From the sequence record NC_073314.1: a stretch of DNA of 45,805 bases; one strand, 5' to 3'. A program made the position numbers and the translations under genes. How positions within the stretch are numbered: the first letter of the stretch is position 1; every line of letters starts with the position of its first letter. The notes beneath the pieces were generated by a model. The model did no database searches and was not told the DNA's origin. It saw only the letters and a list, made by a program, of their open reading frames with translations. The DNA is from Escherichia virus fEg-Eco19. This document shows positions 38,438 through 45,805 of the stretch, piece after piece.

Positions 38438-38493
38438 ATCTCGATTCCTCAGTTTTTAGTTTACTCCGGGAAGCTGCCCGGCCAGTGATTAGA

Positions 38494-38522
38494 ACTATAA
38501 TAGCCAACTATTCAGGTGTCAA
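38494..38522 (-). promoter_or_regulatory. sigma70 promoter TTGACA-N17-TATAGT with AATAG-N4-CTATT palindrome in spacer
   Basis: Reverse complement reads TTGACAcctgaatagttggctatTATAGT. Confidence 0.5.
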
Positions 38523-38526
38523 CACT

Positions 38527-39768
38527 TTATTCCAAATCTTCTTCACTAACCTGATTCCACTCAGGCCGTTTGTCGTCTGCCGTTGTGATGCATGGGGCAC
38601 CTGGTTTACGTGTGATGAAGTCTTTCAGTTCTTCTTCCGGCACAACTTTAACCGCTTCGGTCGGCGTCATGAGCACTTCTTTAGTCAGCTTGTCGCCGTA
38701 GAGTTCTGTTACTTTCTCCGCGTCTTTCCACGCACGATTGCCCATCTTACCTTCAACCAGCTTGTACCCAGGAACTTTCTTACCGGAATGCAACGCGGCA
38801 GCCATAGCTTTCTCAACCTTGTCGATGTGCTGGCGCAACAACGGCAACTTCTCGTACTCAGCTACGAGTTCCTCCGGCGTAAGTTCCAGCGCAAAGTCGT
38901 CCTCCAGTTCTTCCGCCAGCACCGCGTTGACGGTTTTTGTACGCGCGGCGCACTGCTCTGAGAAACGGCACCATTGGCAACCGTCGACAGACGGCCTGAA
39001 GTCCGACGCTTTCAGGTTCTTTTTACCACGGAAATACGCATCAAGAGCTAACAGCGCCCGTTTCTGCGCAAACTTAGCGAACAGTTCCAGACCTTCAACC
39101 GAGATGTCCCACTCCGACGCGCCGCCAGCGTATGGCTGAAAGATGACCAGACGAACGGTTGTTATGTTATAACGTCTCTTGAGTCGGCGATAAACACCTA
39201 GAGCGTAGAGCATAAGCTGCTTGTTTTCTTTCGCTTCGACACGATGCCGTCCTGTTTTCAGGTCGCCGATGATAAGCATGTGCCCGTCAGTGTTAGCCAG
39301 TTCCTGAACGGCAACAAGGTCAGCGGTTCCGAACGTCTCAACGCCTTCATACCCAGGATGCAATACCTCAGTAAGATTGACGCGCATTTCCAGCTTGGCG
39401 TAAGTTGCTACATCGATAATCGGTTTGCAGTAGTCGGTGTACTTTCGCACCTGCTCAATCATGTCCGCCGTAATCAGTACCGCGCCTTTCATCGGGCTGA
39501 TTAGCGCCTTAATCTGGCCTTTACCCTCATCCAGCACGTAAGCGCCAACTTCACGCTCTAACGGCAACGCAGTGCCGCGGATATAAGCGTTGAGATGGAC
39601 TTCAGCTATGGTGTGGCACGCTGTCCCCGTAACGGCGGATTTACCCGACGTGTTAGGAATATCTTTTTCACAGGCCAGTGATGCGGCGCATGACAGCCAT
39701 TTTTTAGCACCTGACGGCGAAAGTAAGGCGTGAACATCGTTATTGCCGCCGCGTTCTTTTAGAATCAT
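38527..39768 (-). CDS. PD-(D/E)XK exonuclease, Cas4/RecB-like, with Cys cluster
   Basis: N-terminal SPSGAKKWLSC, GTADLV...IGDLKTG, QLMLYALG, and Cys cluster C-x...GCQWCRFSEQC. Confidence 0.65.
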   Translation of the reverse strand: MILKERGGNNDVHALLSPSGAKKWLSCAASLACEKDIPNTSGKSAVTGTACHTIAEVHLNAYIRGTALPLEREVGAYVLDEGKGQIKALISPMKGAVLITADMIEQVRKYTDYCKPIIDVATYAKLEMRVNLTEVLHPGYEGVETFGTADLVAVQELANTDGHMLIIGDLKTGRHRVEAKENKQLMLYALGVYRRLKRRYNITTVRLVIFQPYAGGASEWDISVEGLELFAKFAQKRALLALDAYFRGKKNLKASDFRPSVDGCQWCRFSEQCAARTKTVNAVLAEELEDDFALELTPEELVAEYEKLPLLRQHIDKVEKAMAAALHSGKKVPGYKLVEGKMGNRAWKDAEKVTELYGDKLTKEVLMTPTEAVKVVPEEELKDFITRKPGAPCITTADDKRPEWNQVSEEDLE

Positions 39769-40391: not shown

Positions 40392-40420
40392 CTCAGTTAA
40401 AGCGGCCCGAAGGCCGCGAG
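40392..40420 (-). terminator. hairpin terminator candidate (minus strand)
   Basis: Reverse complement: GCGGCC-ttcg-GGCCGC followed by TTTAACT; just downstream of the 40425..40925 stop. Confidence 0.4.
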
Positions 40421-40424
40421 ATAA

Positions 40425-40925
40425 TTATTCTTCTTCGAAATACTTGTTCTTGATTGCTGTCAGGCGTTCCAGGTACTCGGCCAGGTCTTCGTCTTTAATC
40501 GCGGCAATCTTCATCTTCTTACCGGTGAACTCTTCCAGCAGTTCATCAGAATCGTCGCACGCGGCATCGCTCGGACCTTCGTTAATTGCATCGTCGATAG
40601 CCTGAATCTGGTCACGAAGAGACTGGTAATCGACTTCTTCTTTCTCTTCTTCTGGTTCTGGCGTCGGCTCCTCTACTTTAGCTTTACGCGGCTTACGTTT
40701 TGGCTTCTCTTCTTCTGCCGGTTTAGTGTCGACGATGTCTTCACCTTCAACCGGGATTTCTTTTGTTTCTTCTTTAATACTTTCAGAGAACTGCTCAATT
40801 TTATGAGCGGCTACCGCGGCAGCCTCTTTGGCAGTAGTTGGCGCGAACTGTTTCGCACTATTCGCAGCAATCAGTTCATGTGCAACTACGAAACGTTCCA
40901 GTAATACTAAGAATTTCTCTAACAT
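40425..40925 (-). CDS. acidic coiled-coil protein, early gene
   Basis: 166 aa, Glu/Asp-rich with a central KPKRKPRKAK patch; driven by the strong promoter at ~40957-40985. Confidence 0.5.
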   Translation of the reverse strand: MLEKFLVLLERFVVAHELIAANSAKQFAPTTAKEAAAVAAHKIEQFSESIKEETKEIPVEGEDIVDTKPAEEEKPKRKPRKAKVEEPTPEPEEEKEEVDYQSLRDQIQAIDDAINEGPSDAACDDSDELLEEFTGKKMKIAAIKDEDLAEYLERLTAIKNKYFEEE

Positions 40926-41030
40926 TTGTTTCTCTCCTCTCGTTTGGTATGGGCTAACTATAATAGTGAACTATTCACATGTCAATGGGCTTTTCTAAAA
41001 TAATTAATATGGTACTATTCACATATCAAC
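40889..41030. repeat. direct repeat copy 1 (142 bp), divergent promoter/operator region
   Basis: Identical by eye to 41310..41451; contains the first 12 codons of ORF 40425..40925, TTGACA-N17-TATAGT (minus), an AATAG-N4-CTATT palindrome and a plus-strand TGgTACTAT extended -10. Confidence 0.7.
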
Positions 41031-41049
41031 TGACTAAGGAGTAATTAAA

Positions 41050-41265
41050 ATGCAACCATCTGAACTAGGCATTCGTGTAGAACAACGCCGTAAAGAACTC
41101 GGCATCTCCCAGCGCCGTCTGGCGGTGCTGACCGGGGTTTCCCAGGGCGCAATTAACCAGCTGGCACTTGGGGTAACCCAGGACGTCCGCCCGGCAACGC
41201 TGTTTAAACTGGCGGAAGTGCTGGAGGTAGACGCCAAGTGGCTGGCGCTAGGTGAAGGGGCTTAA
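41050..41265 (+). CDS. Cro/CI-type (XRE family) HTH transcriptional regulator
   Basis: 71 aa; ISQRRLAVLTGVSQGAINQLALG is a canonical XRE HTH; only plus-strand gene in a minus-strand module; GGAG RBS. Confidence 0.7.
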   Translation: MQPSELGIRVEQRRKELGISQRRLAVLTGVSQGAINQLALGVTQDVRPATLFKLAEVLEVDAKWLALGEGA

Positions 41266-41280
41266 TGCCCCTTTCTTTTT
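41256..41280 (+). terminator. rho-independent terminator
   Basis: AGGGGC-ttaat-GCCCCT followed by TTCTTTTT, overlapping the cro-like stop codon. Confidence 0.6.
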
Positions 41281-41309
41281 ACCTATTCCAAATCCTCCTC
41301 TTCCGATCT

Positions 41310-41451
41310 CGAAACGTTCCAGTAATACTAAGAATTTCTCTAACATTTGTTTCTCTCCTCTCGTTTGGTATGGGCTAACTATAATAGTGAACTATTCACA
41401 TGTCAATGGGCTTTTCTAAAATAATTAATATGGTACTATTCACATATCAAC
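41310..41451. repeat. direct repeat copy 2 (142 bp)
   Basis: Second copy of promoter/operator region plus a 12-codon 5' fragment of ORF 40425..40925; also contains the last three codons and stop of the primase gene. Confidence 0.7.
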
Positions 41452-43611
41452 AAATCCATCCCCTATTCTTTCGGGTATACGATATGTTCTCGGTACTACT
41501 TCGCCGTTAGCATCGCAACCAAGCATTAGTTCTCCATCTTTCAACATTTTATCAAGATGGGTGTTAGTCCCAGAGAAGTCACCGGAACGAGCCACTATCT
41601 GCTGCTGAGTAAAACCACGACCTGTATCATCTGACTGTTGCAGGTCTTCCAGTGCCGAAAGTATTGACTCCTTCCTTACCTCATCCCTGCCGCGTTTAAC
41701 TTCTTCCTTTACTTTTTGTTTACCTTCGTTAGTTAGCCCTTCTTCCCGCTCTTTCTCCTCGTCAGTTTTGAACGGCTCGAAGCCCCACGGCATCAGCACA
41801 AGAGCCTTGTGCGGTTCCGGCAGGTCGAGGTTTACGATTGTACCGTATTCCTCCGTGCTGCCCAGGAACTCAACCGCGCGGTATTCTTTCGGCGGCGGGG
41901 CTTCACGGAACTGTACAGACTCCAGCACCATGCCGACAGTTTTCTGTTGAGGTCCGTGTTTGAATTTCGAGTGGTATACATTTATCTGACGGTCGGTCGC
42001 GCGTTCGATTGTCAGTTCCACATCGACGCCCGCATACAGAGCGCCACTACCACGGGCTTTCTTTCCGCCCTTCGGCGTATGGTGAACAACCCCTACCGCG
42101 GCTTTAGTCGCGTCGCGTACTTCTTTCAGGATAGCGATAACTTTGCCCATACCGATTGCCGTTGATGAACTGTTCTCGTCGAACTTATCAATCGTCAGGG
42201 CCAGGGTCTGGTTAAGTGTGTCAAACGCAACCATGCCAATTGGTTCATCGCCCGCAGTTTCACGCATTATCTTAATCAGGCTTTTCAGTTTTCCGACTTC
42301 ACCCATATCGATGACGTGTACATAATCTTTACCCTCAACGCCGTATTTAGCCGCGAGTGCATCAATACGTGTACGTGTGGCTGCGCCACCTTCACCGTCG
42401 ATATAGAAATGGTGGCAACGCTGGGTATCCGCCCCCGCAAACCGGTATCCCGCCGCGCTAAGGTACATCATCCCCAGCGTATAGAACGATTTGTACGTGC
42501 CCGATTCCCCGACAATATCCCATATGCAATCCGACGGCATGTACCCTTCAACGACGAAATCAGCCTTTACCGGTTCCGGTAGCTCGTCCTCCTCTGAGTC
42601 ATCCTCGTCTTCCAGGTCGTCCAGGCTGCAAGTTACAGGATCCTCGTTCTCTGTGCGGTGTAGTTCTTCAATCTCTTCATCCGGTAAATCAGGCAAAGCA
42701 GCACGAATGCTGTTAATGCTAATAGGTTGCTTGTCTACGTTAAGCTCGTCCGGAAGGCCGCACATACGCAGGGCCAAATGTTGTCGGCGGTTAAGCTCGG
42801 TGCAGGCACCGTTGTTCGTATGCTGGCACACGAAGCGTACTTCTTTACCGTCAAGCATGATGCTGGTGGAGCCTTTGCCAGTGTGTAGATGTTCGTTAGG
42901 ACATGGCACTTCATACCCGCGCCCGGAAGATAGAGCGTCAAGACCAAGTTCCGCTTCGCAGAAATGCGCTATATCGGCGTTAAGCCCATGCTCATCTGCA
43001 GCAAGTGTCTTAGCTTCACGTTTACGCAACCCCATCTCTTCGGCTTTCTTGATGTACCGCTCTGCACTGATAACACGCCCTTCTGTGACCGTTATCTTCG
43101 ACTCTTTGTGCGGCAGGTAGATAAGGCGGTTACCGTCTTCTGTGCAGTGGTCGCGCAGCGCTTCGTCTATTCCTAACTCTGCGCAAATAGCCCGTTGCAC
43201 CATCCACGCGTCGTTAGATTTGAACGGAGTGCGAGCCGGAACCAGAACGCGGAAGGCGTAATCCCCGTTTTTACACGTGTGCTGGTGCGACGCCGTTGTA
43301 TGCAGAATATTGAAGAACGGTGCGTTCTTGAATTTGCGGGTAAGGTCGCGGTACTGAGTACGGTTTAGATGGTCGAAGTCGAACTTAACCACACTATCTT
43401 CCAGAATCGCGTTCTTACGGCGACCACCAACAGGCGCAATTGCTTTCTGCTTAATCTTGGCCGCGTCGTACTCTTCCTTAGTCCACGACGGGTCTACAGA
43501 CAAACGCTTCGATGTATCGCAGACATACTCTACGAACTGCTCCAGCGGCATTTCACGAGCTACAGGGTTTTTATCGAACGTGTTGCGCAGCGTTGCAAAA
43601 ACAATATTCAT
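41440..43611 (-). CDS. primase-helicase (zinc-binding N-terminal region, P-loop C-terminal domain)
   Basis: Cys/His cluster CPNEHLHTGKGS...FVCQHTNNGAC; P-loop VGESGTYKSF; 723 aa in replication module. Confidence 0.55.
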   Translation of the reverse strand: MNIVFATLRNTFDKNPVAREMPLEQFVEYVCDTSKRLSVDPSWTKEEYDAAKIKQKAIAPVGGRRKNAILEDSVVKFDFDHLNRTQYRDLTRKFKNAPFFNILHTTASHQHTCKNGDYAFRVLVPARTPFKSNDAWMVQRAICAELGIDEALRDHCTEDGNRLIYLPHKESKITVTEGRVISAERYIKKAEEMGLRKREAKTLAADEHGLNADIAHFCEAELGLDALSSGRGYEVPCPNEHLHTGKGSTSIMLDGKEVRFVCQHTNNGACTELNRRQHLALRMCGLPDELNVDKQPISINSIRAALPDLPDEEIEELHRTENEDPVTCSLDDLEDEDDSEEDELPEPVKADFVVEGYMPSDCIWDIVGESGTYKSFYTLGMMYLSAAGYRFAGADTQRCHHFYIDGEGGAATRTRIDALAAKYGVEGKDYVHVIDMGEVGKLKSLIKIMRETAGDEPIGMVAFDTLNQTLALTIDKFDENSSSTAIGMGKVIAILKEVRDATKAAVGVVHHTPKGGKKARGSGALYAGVDVELTIERATDRQINVYHSKFKHGPQQKTVGMVLESVQFREAPPPKEYRAVEFLGSTEEYGTIVNLDLPEPHKALVLMPWGFEPFKTDEEKEREEGLTNEGKQKVKEEVKRGRDEVRKESILSALEDLQQSDDTGRGFTQQQIVARSGDFSGTNTHLDKMLKDGELMLGCDANGEVVPRTYRIPERIGDGFVDM

Positions 43612-43734
43612 TTCTTTTTCTCCGCACGTTCTAAGGCTTCCTGCATACGGCGCATTGCGCGGTTCATCTTTACCGGTGCGAAGAAGTCAGCGCCGTGTTT
43701 CTGACGGCGTAGCTGTGGAACTATTAACTTCGTC
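43609..43734 (-). CDS. small basic protein (41 aa), coupled to primase start
   Basis: Translated by eye; stop overlaps primase ATG as ATGA. Confidence 0.25.
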
Positions 43735-43774
43735 ATTGTATAATCCTTGTGCTTACTTTGATGATTTGTGCTTT

Positions 43775-43806
43775 GCCCCGACGTTCTTGCGTTGGGGTTT
43801 CTTTTT
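43775..43806 (+). terminator. plus-strand intrinsic terminator inside a minus-strand operon
   Basis: GCCCCGACG-ttcttg-CGTTGGGG followed by TTTCTTTTT on the plus strand. Confidence 0.35.
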
Positions 43807-44095
43807 ACCGTTTAGCCAACTCTTCCAGCAAATTTTTATACTCTTCAAAATATTCCTCGACCAAATCATCGCCGAAATAGAAGTCGATATACTCGAGATT
43901 ATCTCTTACGTTAAGCGACGCCGACATGGTGCTTAGTTGACGTAAGCTAATTAGCTTCATTTCTGTTTCTACACAGAAAGGCCGGTAGGTATCGAGGTGG
44001 CAAGAGATGTTGAAGCATAAAGCGAACTCTCCCGCCACGGAGTGAACCATATACACTTCGTTTTCTGCTTTATTGTGGAAAATTACACCTTTCAT
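43805..44095 (-). CDS. hypothetical protein
   Basis: 96-aa ORF overlapping upstream gene stop. Confidence 0.4.
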   Translation of the reverse strand: MKGVIFHNKAENEVYMVHSVAGEFALCFNISCHLDTYRPFCVETEMKLISLRQLSTMSASLNVRDNLEYIDFYFGDDLVEEYFEEYKNLLEELAKR

Positions 44096-44274
44096 TTCAC
44101 ATTCTCCTTAATCCATTCTTCAACTTTATTACGGTCAAATGTACCTGGTAAACGGCGACCCATAACCTTAATACAACAATCAGGGAATTTACCACTGCGC
44201 AACCAGTTATTAATTGTCTGACGTGTTACCCCAATACGCTCGGCTACTTCATTCTGTGTCATGTAATGCTGCAT
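44092..44274 (-). CDS. AlpA/excisionase-type HTH regulator
   Basis: Internal ATG with AGGAGA RBS; MTQNEVAERIGVTRQTINNWLRSGKFP matches AlpA-family HTH. Confidence 0.55.
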   Translation of the reverse strand: MQHYMTQNEVAERIGVTRQTINNWLRSGKFPDCCIKVMGRRLPGTFDRNKVEEWIKENVK

Positions 44275-44305
44275 TTTTATATCTCCTGTTTGTTTGGTGA
44301 AACCG

Positions 44306-44334
44306 AGTATAGGATAGCGGGAATGTAAAAGCAA
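44306..44334 (-). promoter_or_regulatory. sigma70-like promoter TTGCTT-N17-TATACT (leftward)
   Basis: Read from reverse complement; ~30 nt upstream of the AlpA-like ATG. Confidence 0.4.
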
Positions 44335-44371
44335 CCAATCCATGCTATATTTAATCTTTACAAAAAAGTTA

Positions 44372-44401
44372 TTGAAAGTTCTTGACACATGTTTGTATAA
44401 T
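44372..44401 (+). promoter_or_regulatory. sigma70-like promoter TTGAAA-N18-TATAAT (rightward)
   Basis: Read directly; divergent from the leftward promoter. Confidence 0.4.
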
Positions 44402-44407
44402 GGTTTT

Positions 44408-44629
44408 GGGACTTGTATATATTACGGAGTTGACGAACCCTCCCCGAGGGATTCGTCAACCCCTCCCAGACAGCTGAGATGCTTGTTTTAGGGTTTAAGG
44501 ATAAGTGTATCTAAATCTCATTTAAAGAAGTAACCCACTGAAATATCTACTGTTTCTTAATGTGCCGTAGATTCGCAACCGTAAAAATGTAACGATTATT
44601 GGGCAGGCCTTAAGGCCTGCCCTTTAGTT
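44408..44629 (+). ncRNA. candidate small non-coding RNA / structured leader
   Basis: Promoter at ~44372-44401, 14-bp imperfect hairpin at ~44429-44460, then strong terminator at ~44601-44629; no ORF over 10 codons. Confidence 0.25.
44601..44629 (+). terminator. rho-independent terminator
   Basis: GGGCAGGCC-ttaa-GGCCTGCCC perfect 9-bp stem followed by TTTAGTT. Confidence 0.6.
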
Positions 44630-44694
44630 ACCAAGTAATAAGAATAAAGGCACAACCCTACCTGAAGAATCACAACGGCAACGTAACTATTTTC

Positions 44695-44723
44695 TTGCAC
44701 ACCCCAACATAATAGGATACTAT
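44695..44723 (+). promoter_or_regulatory. sigma70-like promoter (TTGCAC-N17-TACTAT class) with AATAG-N4-CTATT palindrome
   Basis: TTGCACaccccaacataataggaTACTAT, ~35 nt upstream of ORF start. Confidence 0.45.
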
Positions 44724-44757
44724 TCACTTATCGAAACGAGACAGATGAGTGAGGGTT

Positions 44758-45039
44758 ATGTTTAGGAAGGGTCAGTTGGTTAAAGTAAAAGGGGGCGAAG
44801 TGATGGAAGAATTAATTTGTGTGAAAAGTAAATTAGTTGAGTTCAAACCGGGGATTTCATATTCCGGATATTCAACCTCTGATTACGATTATGTTATCGA
44901 TGAAACCGGAAGCGAATGGGTAGTTGACCAGTTCGGCGACGACGAATTCGGGGTATTCGATGGTGGGCTGAAAGCCTCATTCACAACGGCATCGAATCAT
45001 GATGCTCGTGCCGACGACTCTGAGGGAGGTTGCCGTTAA
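44758..45039 (+). CDS. hypothetical protein
   Basis: Internal ATG of track ORF 44749..45039. Confidence 0.4.
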   Translation: MFRKGQLVKVKGGEVMEELICVKSKLVEFKPGISYSGYSTSDYDYVIDETGSEWVVDQFGDDEFGVFDGGLKASFTTASNHDARADDSEGGCR

Positions 45040-45236
45040 TGAGAATTCGAATAATTGATGTCGATTATGTGCTGCCGCCGGGGTATGGTGACCATTCTTT
45101 GCGCCACTTTGGTGTTTCGGTGGGCGATGAGTTCGAGGTTACGTCCAGTAATGATTACGGATGTACAGTCAAACATTGCGGAGAGGAACTGTACGTGCGT
45201 AGACGTGAATATGTAGTTCTGGGGACTAAGTTATGA
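45039..45236 (+). CDS. small hypothetical protein (tandem paralog A)
   Basis: MRIRIIDVDY...; shares MRIRI.D....FG.SVGD.F with next ORF. Confidence 0.4.
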   Translation: MRIRIIDVDYVLPPGYGDHSLRHFGVSVGDEFEVTSSNDYGCTVKHCGEELYVRRREYVVLGTKL

Positions 45237-45388
45237 GAATCCGTATAACTGACCGCAGGCTTATAGATTTCGGTATCTCGGTAGGTGATGTTTTTCTGGC
45301 GTTCAGCAGCAACCATTATGGTTTTATGATTGAGTACAAAGGGTCGTTATTGTTCGTGTATCGGGATGAATGCGAGGTTATGGTATGA
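45233..45388 (+). CDS. small hypothetical protein (tandem paralog B)
   Basis: MRIRITDRRLIDFGISVGDVF...; ATGA overlap. Confidence 0.35.
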   Translation: MRIRITDRRLIDFGISVGDVFLAFSSNHYGFMIEYKGSLLFVYRDECEVMV

Positions 45389-45528
45389 GAGAAGCATTTG
45401 AACGTTGGGCCGTCGTCGAGGGTCTGCCGGTTTACAAGGGTTCGAAGAAAGAGTACCTGAACGTTAAGACGCGTCTCGCGTGGCGGGCGTGGAAAGCTGG
45501 TGTGCAGTATGCGATGAATACGAGGTGA
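45385..45528 (+). CDS. small hypothetical protein (47 aa)
   Basis: Translated by eye; ATGA overlap. Confidence 0.3.
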   Translation: MREAFERWAVVEGLPVYKGSKKEYLNVKTRLAWRAWKAGVQYAMNTR

Positions 45529-45531
45529 GAT

Positions 45532-45717
45532 ATGGGTAAGTGGATTAAGTGTAGTGAGTGTATGCCTAAGCCTTATGAATACGTTCTTGTAACTGATGGT
45601 TTTGTCGGCTGTGAGGTTATGCGTGTTAATTCAGATGGCTACTGGGGGCCCGCAAAGAGTTTATATCATGGTGATATCACACACTGGATGCCGTTACCAG
45701 AGCCACCAGAAGTGTGA
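45532..45717 (+). CDS. DUF551-like small phage protein
   Basis: WIKCSECMPKPYEYVLV...ITHWMPLPEPPE matches the conserved pattern of this family. Confidence 0.45.
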   Translation: MGKWIKCSECMPKPYEYVLVTDGFVGCEVMRVNSDGYWGPAKSLYHGDITHWMPLPEPPEV

Positions 45718-45760
45718 TGTTATATTGTAACAATAGTTTGGGATTTTACTGAGTGACTTA

Positions 45761-45790
45761 CGCTGCTACCCAGCAGCGTATCATTTTTCT
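45761..45790 (+). terminator. rho-independent terminator
   Basis: CGCTGCT-accc-AGCAGCG followed by T-rich tract. Confidence 0.5.
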
Positions 45791-45805
45791 CATTTTTGTT
45801 CTATT

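What the first reader, a model, noticed from the sequence alone, without database searches (positions are those of the whole stretch)
43775..43806. Plus-strand intrinsic terminator embedded in a minus-strand operon
A GC-rich hairpin followed by TTTCTTTTT is oriented to terminate rightward transcription, although all flanking genes are leftward. Together with the plus-strand promoter copy carried in direct repeat 2 (~41431-41439), this would bracket an antisense transcript across the 2.2-kb primase gene. Alternatively it acts as a bidirectional attenuator.
Basis: inference. Interest (0 to 1): 0.3.

Follow-up and report, generated by a model that had tools for sequence, protein, structure and literature searches.

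The report
Backward-facing terminator upstream of phage primase
A strong, conserved transcription stop signal sits between leftward genes of an E. coli phage but points rightward; it probably ends a short antisense RNA, or stray antisense transcription, beside the DNA-replication gene, and only RNA mapping can settle its role.

Summary
Window 43775-43798 forms a 10-bp hairpin, followed by TTCTTTTT (43799-43806). It looks like a Rho-independent terminator only on the + strand: + RNA folds at -17.5 kcal/mol (z -4.5), - RNA at -10.1 with no U tract. It is the second-strongest terminator-like site in the window.

The window is a Kagunavirus (E. coli siphophage). The hairpin lies in the 68-nt gap between a 96-aa gene and a 42-aa leader ORF that overlaps the helicase-primase start. 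All three are on the - strand.

About 30 relatives keep the stem and T tract. Variation falls in the loop and in G.U/A-U swaps that preserve pairing only on the + strand. Homology to relatives carrying different upstream genes breaks right after the T tract.

The bidirectional-attenuator idea is not supported.

My best guess (about 0.35) is a roughly 56-nt cis-antisense RNA. It would start at a candidate promoter (43716-43744, perfect TATAAT) and lie opposite the leader of the 42-aa ORF and primase, a geometry like plasmid R1 copA/tap/repA. This is unproven. Rivals are an antisense insulator, an mRNA hairpin, or a recombination-junction relic.

The parts
43775..43798 (+). Terminator stem-loop: 10 bp (6 G-C, 1 A-U, 3 G.U) with loop UCUU.
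   Evidence: The stem is kept in 14 variants, with 98.7% of cells paired on + against 72% on -.
43799..43806 (+). U tract (TTCTTTTT). With T43798 it reads TTTCTTTTT.
   Evidence: TTTCTTTT is invariant in all homologues, even where the adjoining gene differs.
43716..43744 (+). Candidate sigma-70 promoter, TGGAAC-17-TATAAT, with a predicted start near G43751. Function is inferred, not shown.
   Evidence: My PWM (position weight matrix) scan scores it 10.0, rank 23 over both strands of the window. It is the best + candidate between DR2 and the hairpin. TATAAT is invariant in 14 of 14 homologues retrieved without using it as an anchor.
43751..43806 (+). Predicted cis-antisense RNA of about 56 nt: a 24-nt single-stranded 5' part plus the terminator hairpin and U tail. 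It is complementary to the 5' UTR of the 42-aa ORF and begins 1-2 nt from its Shine-Dalgarno (ribosome-binding) sequence. Inferred only.
   Evidence: Geometry derived. There are no RNA data.
43608..43736 (-). 42-aa leader ORF. Its ribosome-binding sequence AAGGA is the complement of 43745-43749, and its TGA stop overlaps the primase ATG (ATGA).
   Evidence: Indels are in-frame in L020 and L021, but the ORF is truncated in Sciku, Shashou and Schulenburg. It is restricted to Kagunavirus.
41440..43611 (-). Replicative helicase-primase gene. In this window its 3' end is altered by DR2.
   Evidence: Pfam AAA_25 hits a homologue.
43805..44095 (-). 96-aa upstream gene. It is one of at least three alternative gene modules that abut the T tract.
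41254..41283 (+). The other strong + terminator in the leftward block. It belongs to the + strand DicA-like regulator gene (41050-41265) and has the same 12-nt tail, TTTCTTTTTACC.
41395..41422 (+). DR2 copy of the regulator promoter candidate (TTCACA-16-TAAAAT). It points into the primase gene in the antisense direction and is specific to this genome.

Best explanation
Shown:
- The element is a genuine, conserved, strand-specific Rho-independent terminator for rightward (+) transcription.
- It lies in the untranslated gap just upstream of the 42-aa leader ORF and helicase-primase of a Kagunavirus.

Inferred:
- It marks the 3' end of a short cis-encoded antisense RNA of about 56 nt, spanning 43751-43806.
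- That RNA would be fired by host RNA polymerase from the candidate promoter at 43716-43744. The promoter's perfect -10 (TATAAT) lies in the spacer between the ribosome-binding sequence and the ATG of the leader ORF.
- The RNA would pair with the leftward mRNA from 1-2 nt upstream of the leader ORF's ribosome-binding sequence out to the end of the preceding gene.
- Pairing would lower leader-ORF translation, and hence coupled primase translation, and/or trigger cleavage that uncouples the early genes from the replication genes.

The layout parallels plasmid R1: a regulator gene, then an antisense RNA gene in the gap, then a leader peptide, then a translationally coupled replication protein (copB-copA-tap-repA).
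For: Terminator anatomy and strength. It is the second strongest of 19 sites, against 3.6 expected.

Strand of selection:
- Three G.U pairs hold on the + strand.
- Purine-to-purine swaps at three stem positions keep G.U or A-U pairing with invariant U.
- 152 of 154 cells pair on + against 111 of 154 on -.
- Variation is concentrated in the 4-nt loop.

The T tract is invariant although at least three unrelated upstream gene modules begin immediately after it.

In the 13-kb leftward block the best + promoter candidates are the regulator promoter, its DR2 copy, and 43716-43744. The regulator promoter and 43716-43744 are each followed, within about 275 nt and 55 nt, by the only two strong + terminators of the block. 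The third apparent one, at 38993, is weak and not conserved.

The promoter candidate ranks 23rd in 91.6 kb. The chance of so good a site lying within 100 nt upstream of a + terminator of that block is about 3% (my estimate).

In phage vB_Eco_K1B4 (the name resembles that of the close relative OQ696342; identity of the two was not checked), RNA-seq places HTH gene 008 as early and AAA-domain gene 005 as middle. If those numbers follow genome order, the genes on the two sides of this gap behave differently (PMC12645636).

The R1 architecture is described in PMC5717011. Antisense-oriented terminators and antisense RNAs have been mapped experimentally in other phages (PMC10914365).
Against: - No RNA data exist for this site.
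- The -35 matches only 3 of 6 positions, there is no extended -10, and the tool's own promoter scan did not list the site. It was picked after the terminator was known.
- All homologues are at least 94% identical here, so invariance of TATAAT is uninformative. About 21% of neighbouring UTR columns vary, which makes six invariant columns expected about 24% of the time.
- There is no two-sided compensatory change in the stem.
- The leader ORF is truncated in 3 of 14 homologues, and in Sciku, Shashou and Schulenburg it no longer overlaps the primase start. Strict tap-like coupling is therefore not universal.
- No Rfam family matches.
Confidence: 0.35

Rival explanations
1. Insulator or backstop. 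The terminator stops long rightward antisense transcription before it enters the early control region and collides with the early leftward promoter. That transcription would be read-through from the + strand regulator gene past its own terminator, cryptic starts inside the primase gene, and, in this genome, the DR2 promoter copy.
For: A + promoter candidate and a + gene lie 2.5 kb to the left. No other strong + terminator lies between them and the hairpin. The two + terminators share a 12-nt tail. In this window DR2 adds an orphan promoter copy aimed at the hairpin.
Against: The regulator gene has its own good terminator, at -14.2 kcal/mol. An untranslated 2.4-kb antisense RNA running head-on into the primase operon should mostly be ended earlier by Rho or by collisions (inference), so selection for a backstop would be weak. 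DR2 is absent from all other genomes.
Confidence: 0.2
2. The hairpin acts in the leftward mRNA. Processing in the A-rich stretch (UAAAAAGAAA) would leave the hairpin either as a 5' stabiliser of the leader-primase mRNA or as a 3' exonuclease barrier for the early mRNA. The + strand T tract would then be incidental.
For: The - strand RNA still forms a hairpin of -10 kcal/mol, directly after the stop codon of the upstream gene. One variant (the G-to-A change at 43791 in L003, L013 and L036) pairs better on - than on +. The early-versus-middle difference in the K1B4 paper could reflect differential mRNA stability.
Against: An internal A.C mismatch is the state kept on the - strand in 12 of 13 variants, while the + strand keeps G.U. 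The T tract is invariant across unrelated neighbouring modules, which this model does not need.
Confidence: 0.15
3. Relic or recombination junction. The hairpin and T tract are a leftover terminator, or a conserved homology arm at which alternative early-gene modules are exchanged. Frequent recombination, rather than present function, keeps the region uniform.
For: Homology to about half of 41 records breaks exactly at 43805. At least three upstream modules abut the T tract. The adjoining 43592-43700 segment is unusually uniform, with 6 of 109 columns variable against about 20% in the primase gene. That uniformity holds even though the ORF it encodes is truncated in some phages.
Against: The pattern of change is what selection on a + strand RNA hairpin predicts: variable loop, invariant stem core, and purine swaps that keep pairing with U. 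The conserved block ends precisely at the end of the T tract in each module type.
Confidence: 0.15
4. Bidirectional attenuator. The hairpin would reduce leftward read-through into the primase gene as well as terminating rightward transcripts.
For: ARNold called the homologous hairpin on both strands in the fBC-Eco01 GenBank record. The primase is 'middle' and the upstream HTH gene 'early' in the K1B4 paper.
Against: On the - strand the hairpin is followed by AAAGCACAAAUC, with no U tract. That hairpin is weaker, at -10.1 kcal/mol with z -1.7. No - strand promoter candidate lies between the hairpin and the primase, so the primase depends on read-through.
Confidence: 0.05

Closest known systems
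Canonical E. coli Rho-independent (intrinsic) terminators
   Same: A G+C-rich stem of 10-11 bp, a 4-nt loop, and an immediately following U tract (8 of 9 U). Stability is far beyond shuffled sequence.
   Different: It points against every flanking gene. No + strand gene or intact ORF ends at it: the + ORF at 43369-43704 carries stop codons in most homologues.
Plasmid R1 copB-copA-tap-repA antisense control (PMC5717011), and related IncB/IncI RNAI-repY-repZ systems (the latter from my own knowledge)
   Same: The order along the mRNA matches: a small DNA-binding regulator gene, an untranslated gap holding an oppositely oriented terminator, a short leader ORF, and an overlapping, presumably coupled, replication gene. 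The predicted antisense RNA would end its pairing 1-2 nt from the leader's ribosome-binding sequence. From memory, the CopA-CopT duplex sits about 2 nt from the tap ribosome-binding sequence.
   Different: The antisense RNA and its promoter are only predicted here. The RNA would be about 56 nt with a single hairpin, whereas CopA is about 90 nt with two. The host is a virulent phage and the replication protein is a helicase-primase, not an initiator. There is no sequence or Rfam similarity. The leader ORF is truncated in some relatives.
Phage lambda OOP RNA and its terminator (own knowledge, not tested here)
   Same: A short antisense transcript with its own terminator embedded against the direction of a phage early or replication operon.
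   Different: OOP overlaps the 3' end of cII. Here the target would be a 5' leader. There is no homology.
Antisense-oriented terminators and antisense RNAs mapped by ONT-cappable-seq in Pseudomonas phages (PMC10914365)
   Same: 9% of the terminators mapped experimentally in those phages lie antisense to the annotated genes, and 20 antisense RNAs with defined starts were found. The class is therefore established.
   Different: The phages and hosts differ, and no mapping exists for Kagunavirus.
Bidirectional intrinsic terminators between convergent genes
   Same: A palindromic G+C-rich hairpin located between genes.
   Different: Those have an A tract 5' and a U tract 3' of the stem, so both strands terminate. 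Here the 5' flank is TGTGCTTT, only the + strand has a U tract, and the flanking genes are co-directional.

Membership tests
Rho-independent terminator acting on + strand transcripts | A stable G+C-rich stem-loop in the transcript | tested here: met
   10 bp, -17.5 kcal/mol, z -4.5, 0 of 200 shuffles as stable. Twelve of 13 homologue variants fold at -16.9 to -17.7.
Rho-independent terminator acting on + strand transcripts | A U-rich tract immediately 3' of the stem | tested here: met
   UUUCUUUUU at 43798-43806. TTTCTTTT is invariant in all homologues.
Rho-independent terminator acting on + strand transcripts | Evolutionary maintenance of pairing | tested here: inconclusive
   98.7% of cells are paired, and three pairs switch between G.U and A-U. 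There is no two-sided compensatory change and shuffles score equally, because diversity is too low.
Rho-independent terminator acting on + strand transcripts | RNA 3' ends at the U tract in vivo or in vitro | not testable with these tools
   The only RNA-seq paper found for a phage of this subfamily reports gene-level classes only.
Bidirectional intrinsic terminator / attenuator | A U tract after the hairpin on both strands (an A tract 5' of the stem) | tested here: not met
   The - strand tail is AAAGCACAAAUC, and the 5' flank on + is TGTGCTTT.
Bidirectional intrinsic terminator / attenuator | A hairpin comparably stable on both strands | tested here: not met
   -17.5 against -10.1 kcal/mol, with the asymmetry present in 12 of 13 variants.
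cis-antisense RNA control of a replication gene through a leader ORF (R1 copA/tap/repA type) | An antisense-strand terminator in the leader or intergenic region | tested here: met
cis-antisense RNA control of a replication gene through a leader ORF (R1 copA/tap/repA type) | An antisense-strand promoter a short distance upstream of that terminator | tested here: inconclusive
   TGGAAC-17-TATAAT at 43716-43744 has PWM rank 23 in the window and a perfect -10, but a -35 matching 3 of 6. It is not listed by the tool's scan.
cis-antisense RNA control of a replication gene through a leader ORF (R1 copA/tap/repA type) | A short leader ORF translationally coupled to the replication gene | tested here: inconclusive
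   An ATGA overlap is present in the window and most relatives. The ORF ends 19-24 nt before the primase ATG in Sciku, Shashou and Schulenburg.
cis-antisense RNA control of a replication gene through a leader ORF (R1 copA/tap/repA type) | A detectable antisense RNA that lowers expression of the replication protein | not testable with these tools
   Needs a Northern blot or 5'/3' end mapping, plus reporter fusions.
Any described RNA family (Rfam 15) | A covariance-model match at the family's gathering score | tested here: not met
   There are no matches in the whole window. Near the site there are only sub-threshold hits driven by the terminator shape, such as anti-hemB at 18.5 bits against a threshold of 49.5.

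The most novel reading that the evidence does not exclude
A virulent E. coli phage genus (Kagunavirus) controls its helicase-primase with a plasmid-style circuit. A constitutive antisense RNA of about 56 nt, ended by this terminator, would pair next to the ribosome-binding site of a short leader ORF that gates primase translation. The RNA would thus time or dose phage replication, much as CopA/tap/repA sets the copy number of plasmid R1.
Probability: 0.3. Interest if true: 0.55.

Novelty: new member of a known kind. Interest (0 to 1): 0.3.

Why it matters
If the short antisense RNA exists, it would be an RNA-level regulator of the replication module in a genus of virulent phages now collected for therapy. 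That genus includes K1-capsule phages and BASEL phages Bas70-76.

It would also show that 'wrong-strand' terminators in phage annotations can flag unannotated small RNA genes. One GenBank record (fBC-Eco01) already lists this hairpin as a predicted terminator on both strands, without comment.

If it is only an insulator or a recombination junction, it is an ordinary feature of mosaic phage genomes.

Tried and rejected
- **Covariation.** I assembled about 30 copies from the phage collection, IMG/VR, Logan and metagenomes. All are at least 94% identical, with 13-14 hairpin variants and no two-sided compensatory change. The metagenome scan added no new diversity.
- **More distant relatives.** The 42-aa ORF is confined to Kagunavirus. 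Dhillonvirus HK578 and Cornellvirus SP-031 have a different gene order around the primase, so there is no analogous site to compare.
- **Rfam.** Nothing matched.
- **A hidden + strand gene ending at the terminator.** The + ORF at 43369-43704 has stop codons in most homologues.
- **A long structured antisense RNA across 43590-43772.** Folding z-scores are -1.0 on + and -0.1 on -, neither significant.
- **A system of + terminators sharing the CTTTTTACC tail.** The 38993 hairpin is weak (-8.9 kcal/mol), lies inside the exonuclease gene, and loses the tail in homologues, where it reads CTTCTTGCC. I rejected it as chance.
- **A - strand promoter between the hairpin and the primase.** None was found.
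- **The K1B4 RNA-seq paper.** It gives gene-level temporal classes only, with nothing on strand or position (the supplement table I searched lists host genes).

Full report
**What the window is.** Megablast of 41000-45805 finds 92-94% identical E. coli siphophages of the genus Kagunavirus (Guernseyvirinae), such as 590B, Bas70-76 and fBC-Eco01. Their annotation gives the local gene order:
- exonuclease and other genes, on the - strand;
- a single + strand DicA-like HTH regulator gene (window 41050-41265);
- the replicative helicase-primase (41440-43611, -);
- a 42-aa ORF (43608-43736, -) whose TGA stop overlaps the primase ATG;
- a 68-nt gap;
- a 96-aa gene (43805-44095, -);
- an HTH_17 gene (-);
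- a control region, after which + strand genes start at about 44749.

The gap contains GCCCCGACGT-TCTT-GCGTTGGGGT (43775-43798) followed by TTCTTTTTA.
- As + RNA it is a 10-bp hairpin of -17.5 kcal/mol, z -4.5, with 0 of 200 shuffles as stable.
- As - RNA it reaches only -10.1 (z -1.7). Three G.U pairs become A.C mismatches, and the sequence after it (AAAGCACAAAUC) has no U tract.
- The tool's lenient terminator pattern is not enriched over shuffles.
- A stricter scan (hairpin of -12 kcal/mol or better abutting at least 6 of 8 T) gives 19 sites against 3.6 +/- 1.5 in shuffles.
- At -17 kcal/mol or better it gives 2 sites, this one and 21722, against 0.15 expected.
- The TAA stop of the 96-aa gene (43805-43807) overlaps the last two T of the tract.

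**Conservation and strand of selection.** I collected about 30 copies from the phage collection, IMG/VR, Logan assemblies and metagenomes. All are at least 94% identical, so the comparative signal is limited.

What variation exists is patterned:
- The stem core CCCCGACG/CGTTGGGG and the tract TTTCTTTT never change.
- Changes fall in the four loop bases (TTCT, then T, G or A; also TCCTA and TTATA).
- Other changes are purine-to-purine swaps at three stem positions. These keep G.U or A-U pairing with invariant U on the + strand but create or remove A.C mismatches on the - strand.
- 152 of 154 cells pair on + against 111 of 154 on -.
- Twelve of 13 variants fold at about -17 kcal/mol on + and about -10 on -.

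There is no two-sided compensatory change, so covariation statistics say nothing. One lineage carries a G-to-A change at 43791 that weakens the + hairpin to -11.2.

**A mosaic boundary.** In about half of 41 phage records, homology to the window stops exactly at 43805. At least three unrelated upstream gene modules start right after TTTCTTTT: the 96-aa type, the Golestan type, and the Sciku/RP180 type. The hairpin and T tract therefore belong with the leader-primase side. The T tract is not maintained by the coding needs of the 96-aa gene.

**What transcription could it stop?**

- The window has an exact direct repeat, 40878-41030 and 41299-41451.
- The repeat holds the divergent promoter region of the regulator gene, including the best + candidate, TTCACA-16-TAAAAT.
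- The second copy (DR2) points into the primase gene in the antisense direction, and no other strong + terminator intervenes.
- However, DR2 is contiguous in none of 161 matching phage records and is absent from Bas72, 590B and fBC-Eco01.
- DR2 also replaces the last ~17 codons of the primase.
- It is a genome-specific rearrangement or an assembly artefact, and it cannot explain a hairpin conserved across the genus.

*(b) Read-through from the regulator gene.* That gene has its own good terminator at 41254-41283 (-14.2 kcal/mol). A 2.4-kb untranslated antisense RNA would probably be ended earlier by Rho or by collisions. This is an inference, not a test.

*(c) A local promoter.*
- A simple sigma-70 weight-matrix scan of both strands ranks TGGAAC-17-TATAAT at 43716-43744 (+) 23rd in the window. 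It is the best + candidate between DR2 and the hairpin.
- Its perfect -10 lies in the spacer between the ribosome-binding sequence and the ATG of the 42-aa ORF.
- A start at about G43751 would give an RNA of about 56 nt: 24 unpaired nucleotides, then the terminator hairpin and U tail.
- That RNA would be complementary to the leader mRNA from 1-2 nt upstream of its ribosome-binding sequence.
- Within the 13-kb leftward block, the regulator promoter and this candidate are each followed by one of the only two strong + terminators. The apparent third, at 38993, is weak and not conserved.
- I estimate about a 3% chance of such a placement. The choice was made after the fact, the -35 matches only 3 of 6 positions, and invariance of TATAAT is uninformative at this level of divergence.

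**Context that bears on the mechanism.**
- The 42-aa ORF keeps its frame through a +9 and a -3 nt indel. It is truncated by a frameshift or a stop codon in Sciku, Shashou and Schulenburg.
- Yet nucleotides 43592-43700 are nearly invariant, with 6 of 109 columns variable against about 20% in the primase gene. This could reflect a nucleic-acid-level constraint or homogenisation by recombination next to the junction.
- Folding of 43590-43772 is not significantly structured on either strand.
- The only transcriptome paper found for the subfamily concerns vB_Eco_K1B4, whose name resembles that of the close relative OQ696342. It classes HTH gene 008 as early and AAA-domain gene 005 as middle (PMC12645636). 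If the numbering follows genome order, expression differs across this gap. The data are not resolved by strand or position.

**Comparison with known systems.**
- The element meets every sequence criterion of a + strand intrinsic terminator. It fails the criteria of a bidirectional one.
- ARNold had already called the homologous hairpin on both strands in the fBC-Eco01 record. The paper reports 23 predicted terminators and says only that a few lie within genes and might regulate transcription.
- Terminators antisense to the genes make up 9% of those mapped experimentally in six Pseudomonas phages, and antisense RNAs are common there (PMC10914365).
- The layout mirrors plasmid R1 copB-copA-tap-repA (PMC5717011): a regulator gene, an antisense unit in the gap, a leader ORF, and an overlapping replication gene. 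Only the terminator part of that resemblance is demonstrated here.
- No Rfam family matches.

**Verdict.** The site is a real, conserved, rightward-only terminator embedded in a leftward operon.
- Its most likely role (about 0.35) is the 3' end of a short cis-antisense RNA against the leader of the primase operon.
- The rivals are an insulator against long antisense transcription (0.2), a leftward-mRNA stability or processing hairpin (0.15), a relic or recombination junction (0.15), and a bidirectional attenuator (0.05).
- It is a new member of a known kind and of moderate interest. One end-mapping experiment would settle the question.

Noticed in passing
window 40878-41030 and 41299-41451: An exact 153-bp direct repeat. 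The second copy duplicates the divergent promoter region and the first 16 codons of the 166-aa gene, and it replaces the last ~17 codons of the helicase-primase (723 aa here against 744 in Bas72). It is contiguous in none of 161 phage records, so it is either a genome-specific rearrangement or an assembly artefact.
   Followed up: partly
window 44372-44630: A near-consensus + promoter, TTGAAA-18-TATAAT (PWM rank 4 in the window), is followed about 200 nt later by a perfect 9-bp palindromic hairpin (44601-44622). An internal hairpin lies at about 44431-44460. This could be a + strand RNA of about 220 nt or a leader in the early control region, overlapping small - strand ORFs annotated in relatives. 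No Rfam match.
   Followed up: partly
window 44339-44664: This ~326-nt segment is one of two alternative alleles in Kagunavirus, and it co-occurs with the 96-aa gene allele. The other allele (Golestan and Sciku types) lacks the strong + promoter.
   Followed up: partly
window 38493-38522, 40956-40985, 41377-41406, 44705-44734: A family of leftward near-consensus promoters (TTGACA-17-TATAGT). A palindrome, AATAGT-N2-ACTATT, lies between the -35 and -10, which suggests a shared operator. It resembles the 'phage promoter' motif reported by PHIRE for fBC-Eco01.
   Followed up: no
window 43592-43700: These ~110 nt cover most of the 42-aa ORF and the primase start. They are almost invariant among relatives (6 of 109 columns variable against about 20% in the primase gene), although the ORF is truncated in three phages. 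The cause is unexplained: it could be a nucleic-acid constraint or recombinational homogenisation. A local hairpin at 43690-43708 tolerates a change (43695) that keeps pairing only on the - strand.
   Followed up: partly
window about 40403-40418: The hairpin GCGGCC-UUCG-GGCCGC (as - strand RNA, with a UUCG tetraloop) lies in the gap between two leftward genes and is followed by UUUAACUG. It may be a weak leftward attenuator or an mRNA stabiliser.
   Followed up: no
window 38993-39027, 41254-41283, 43775-43809: Three + hairpins share the tail CTTTTTACC (0.42 expected). The tails at 41254 and 43775 are identical over 12 nt (TTTCTTTTTACC). The 38993 case is inside the exonuclease gene, weak, and not conserved, so the triple is partly coincidence.
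   Followed up: yes
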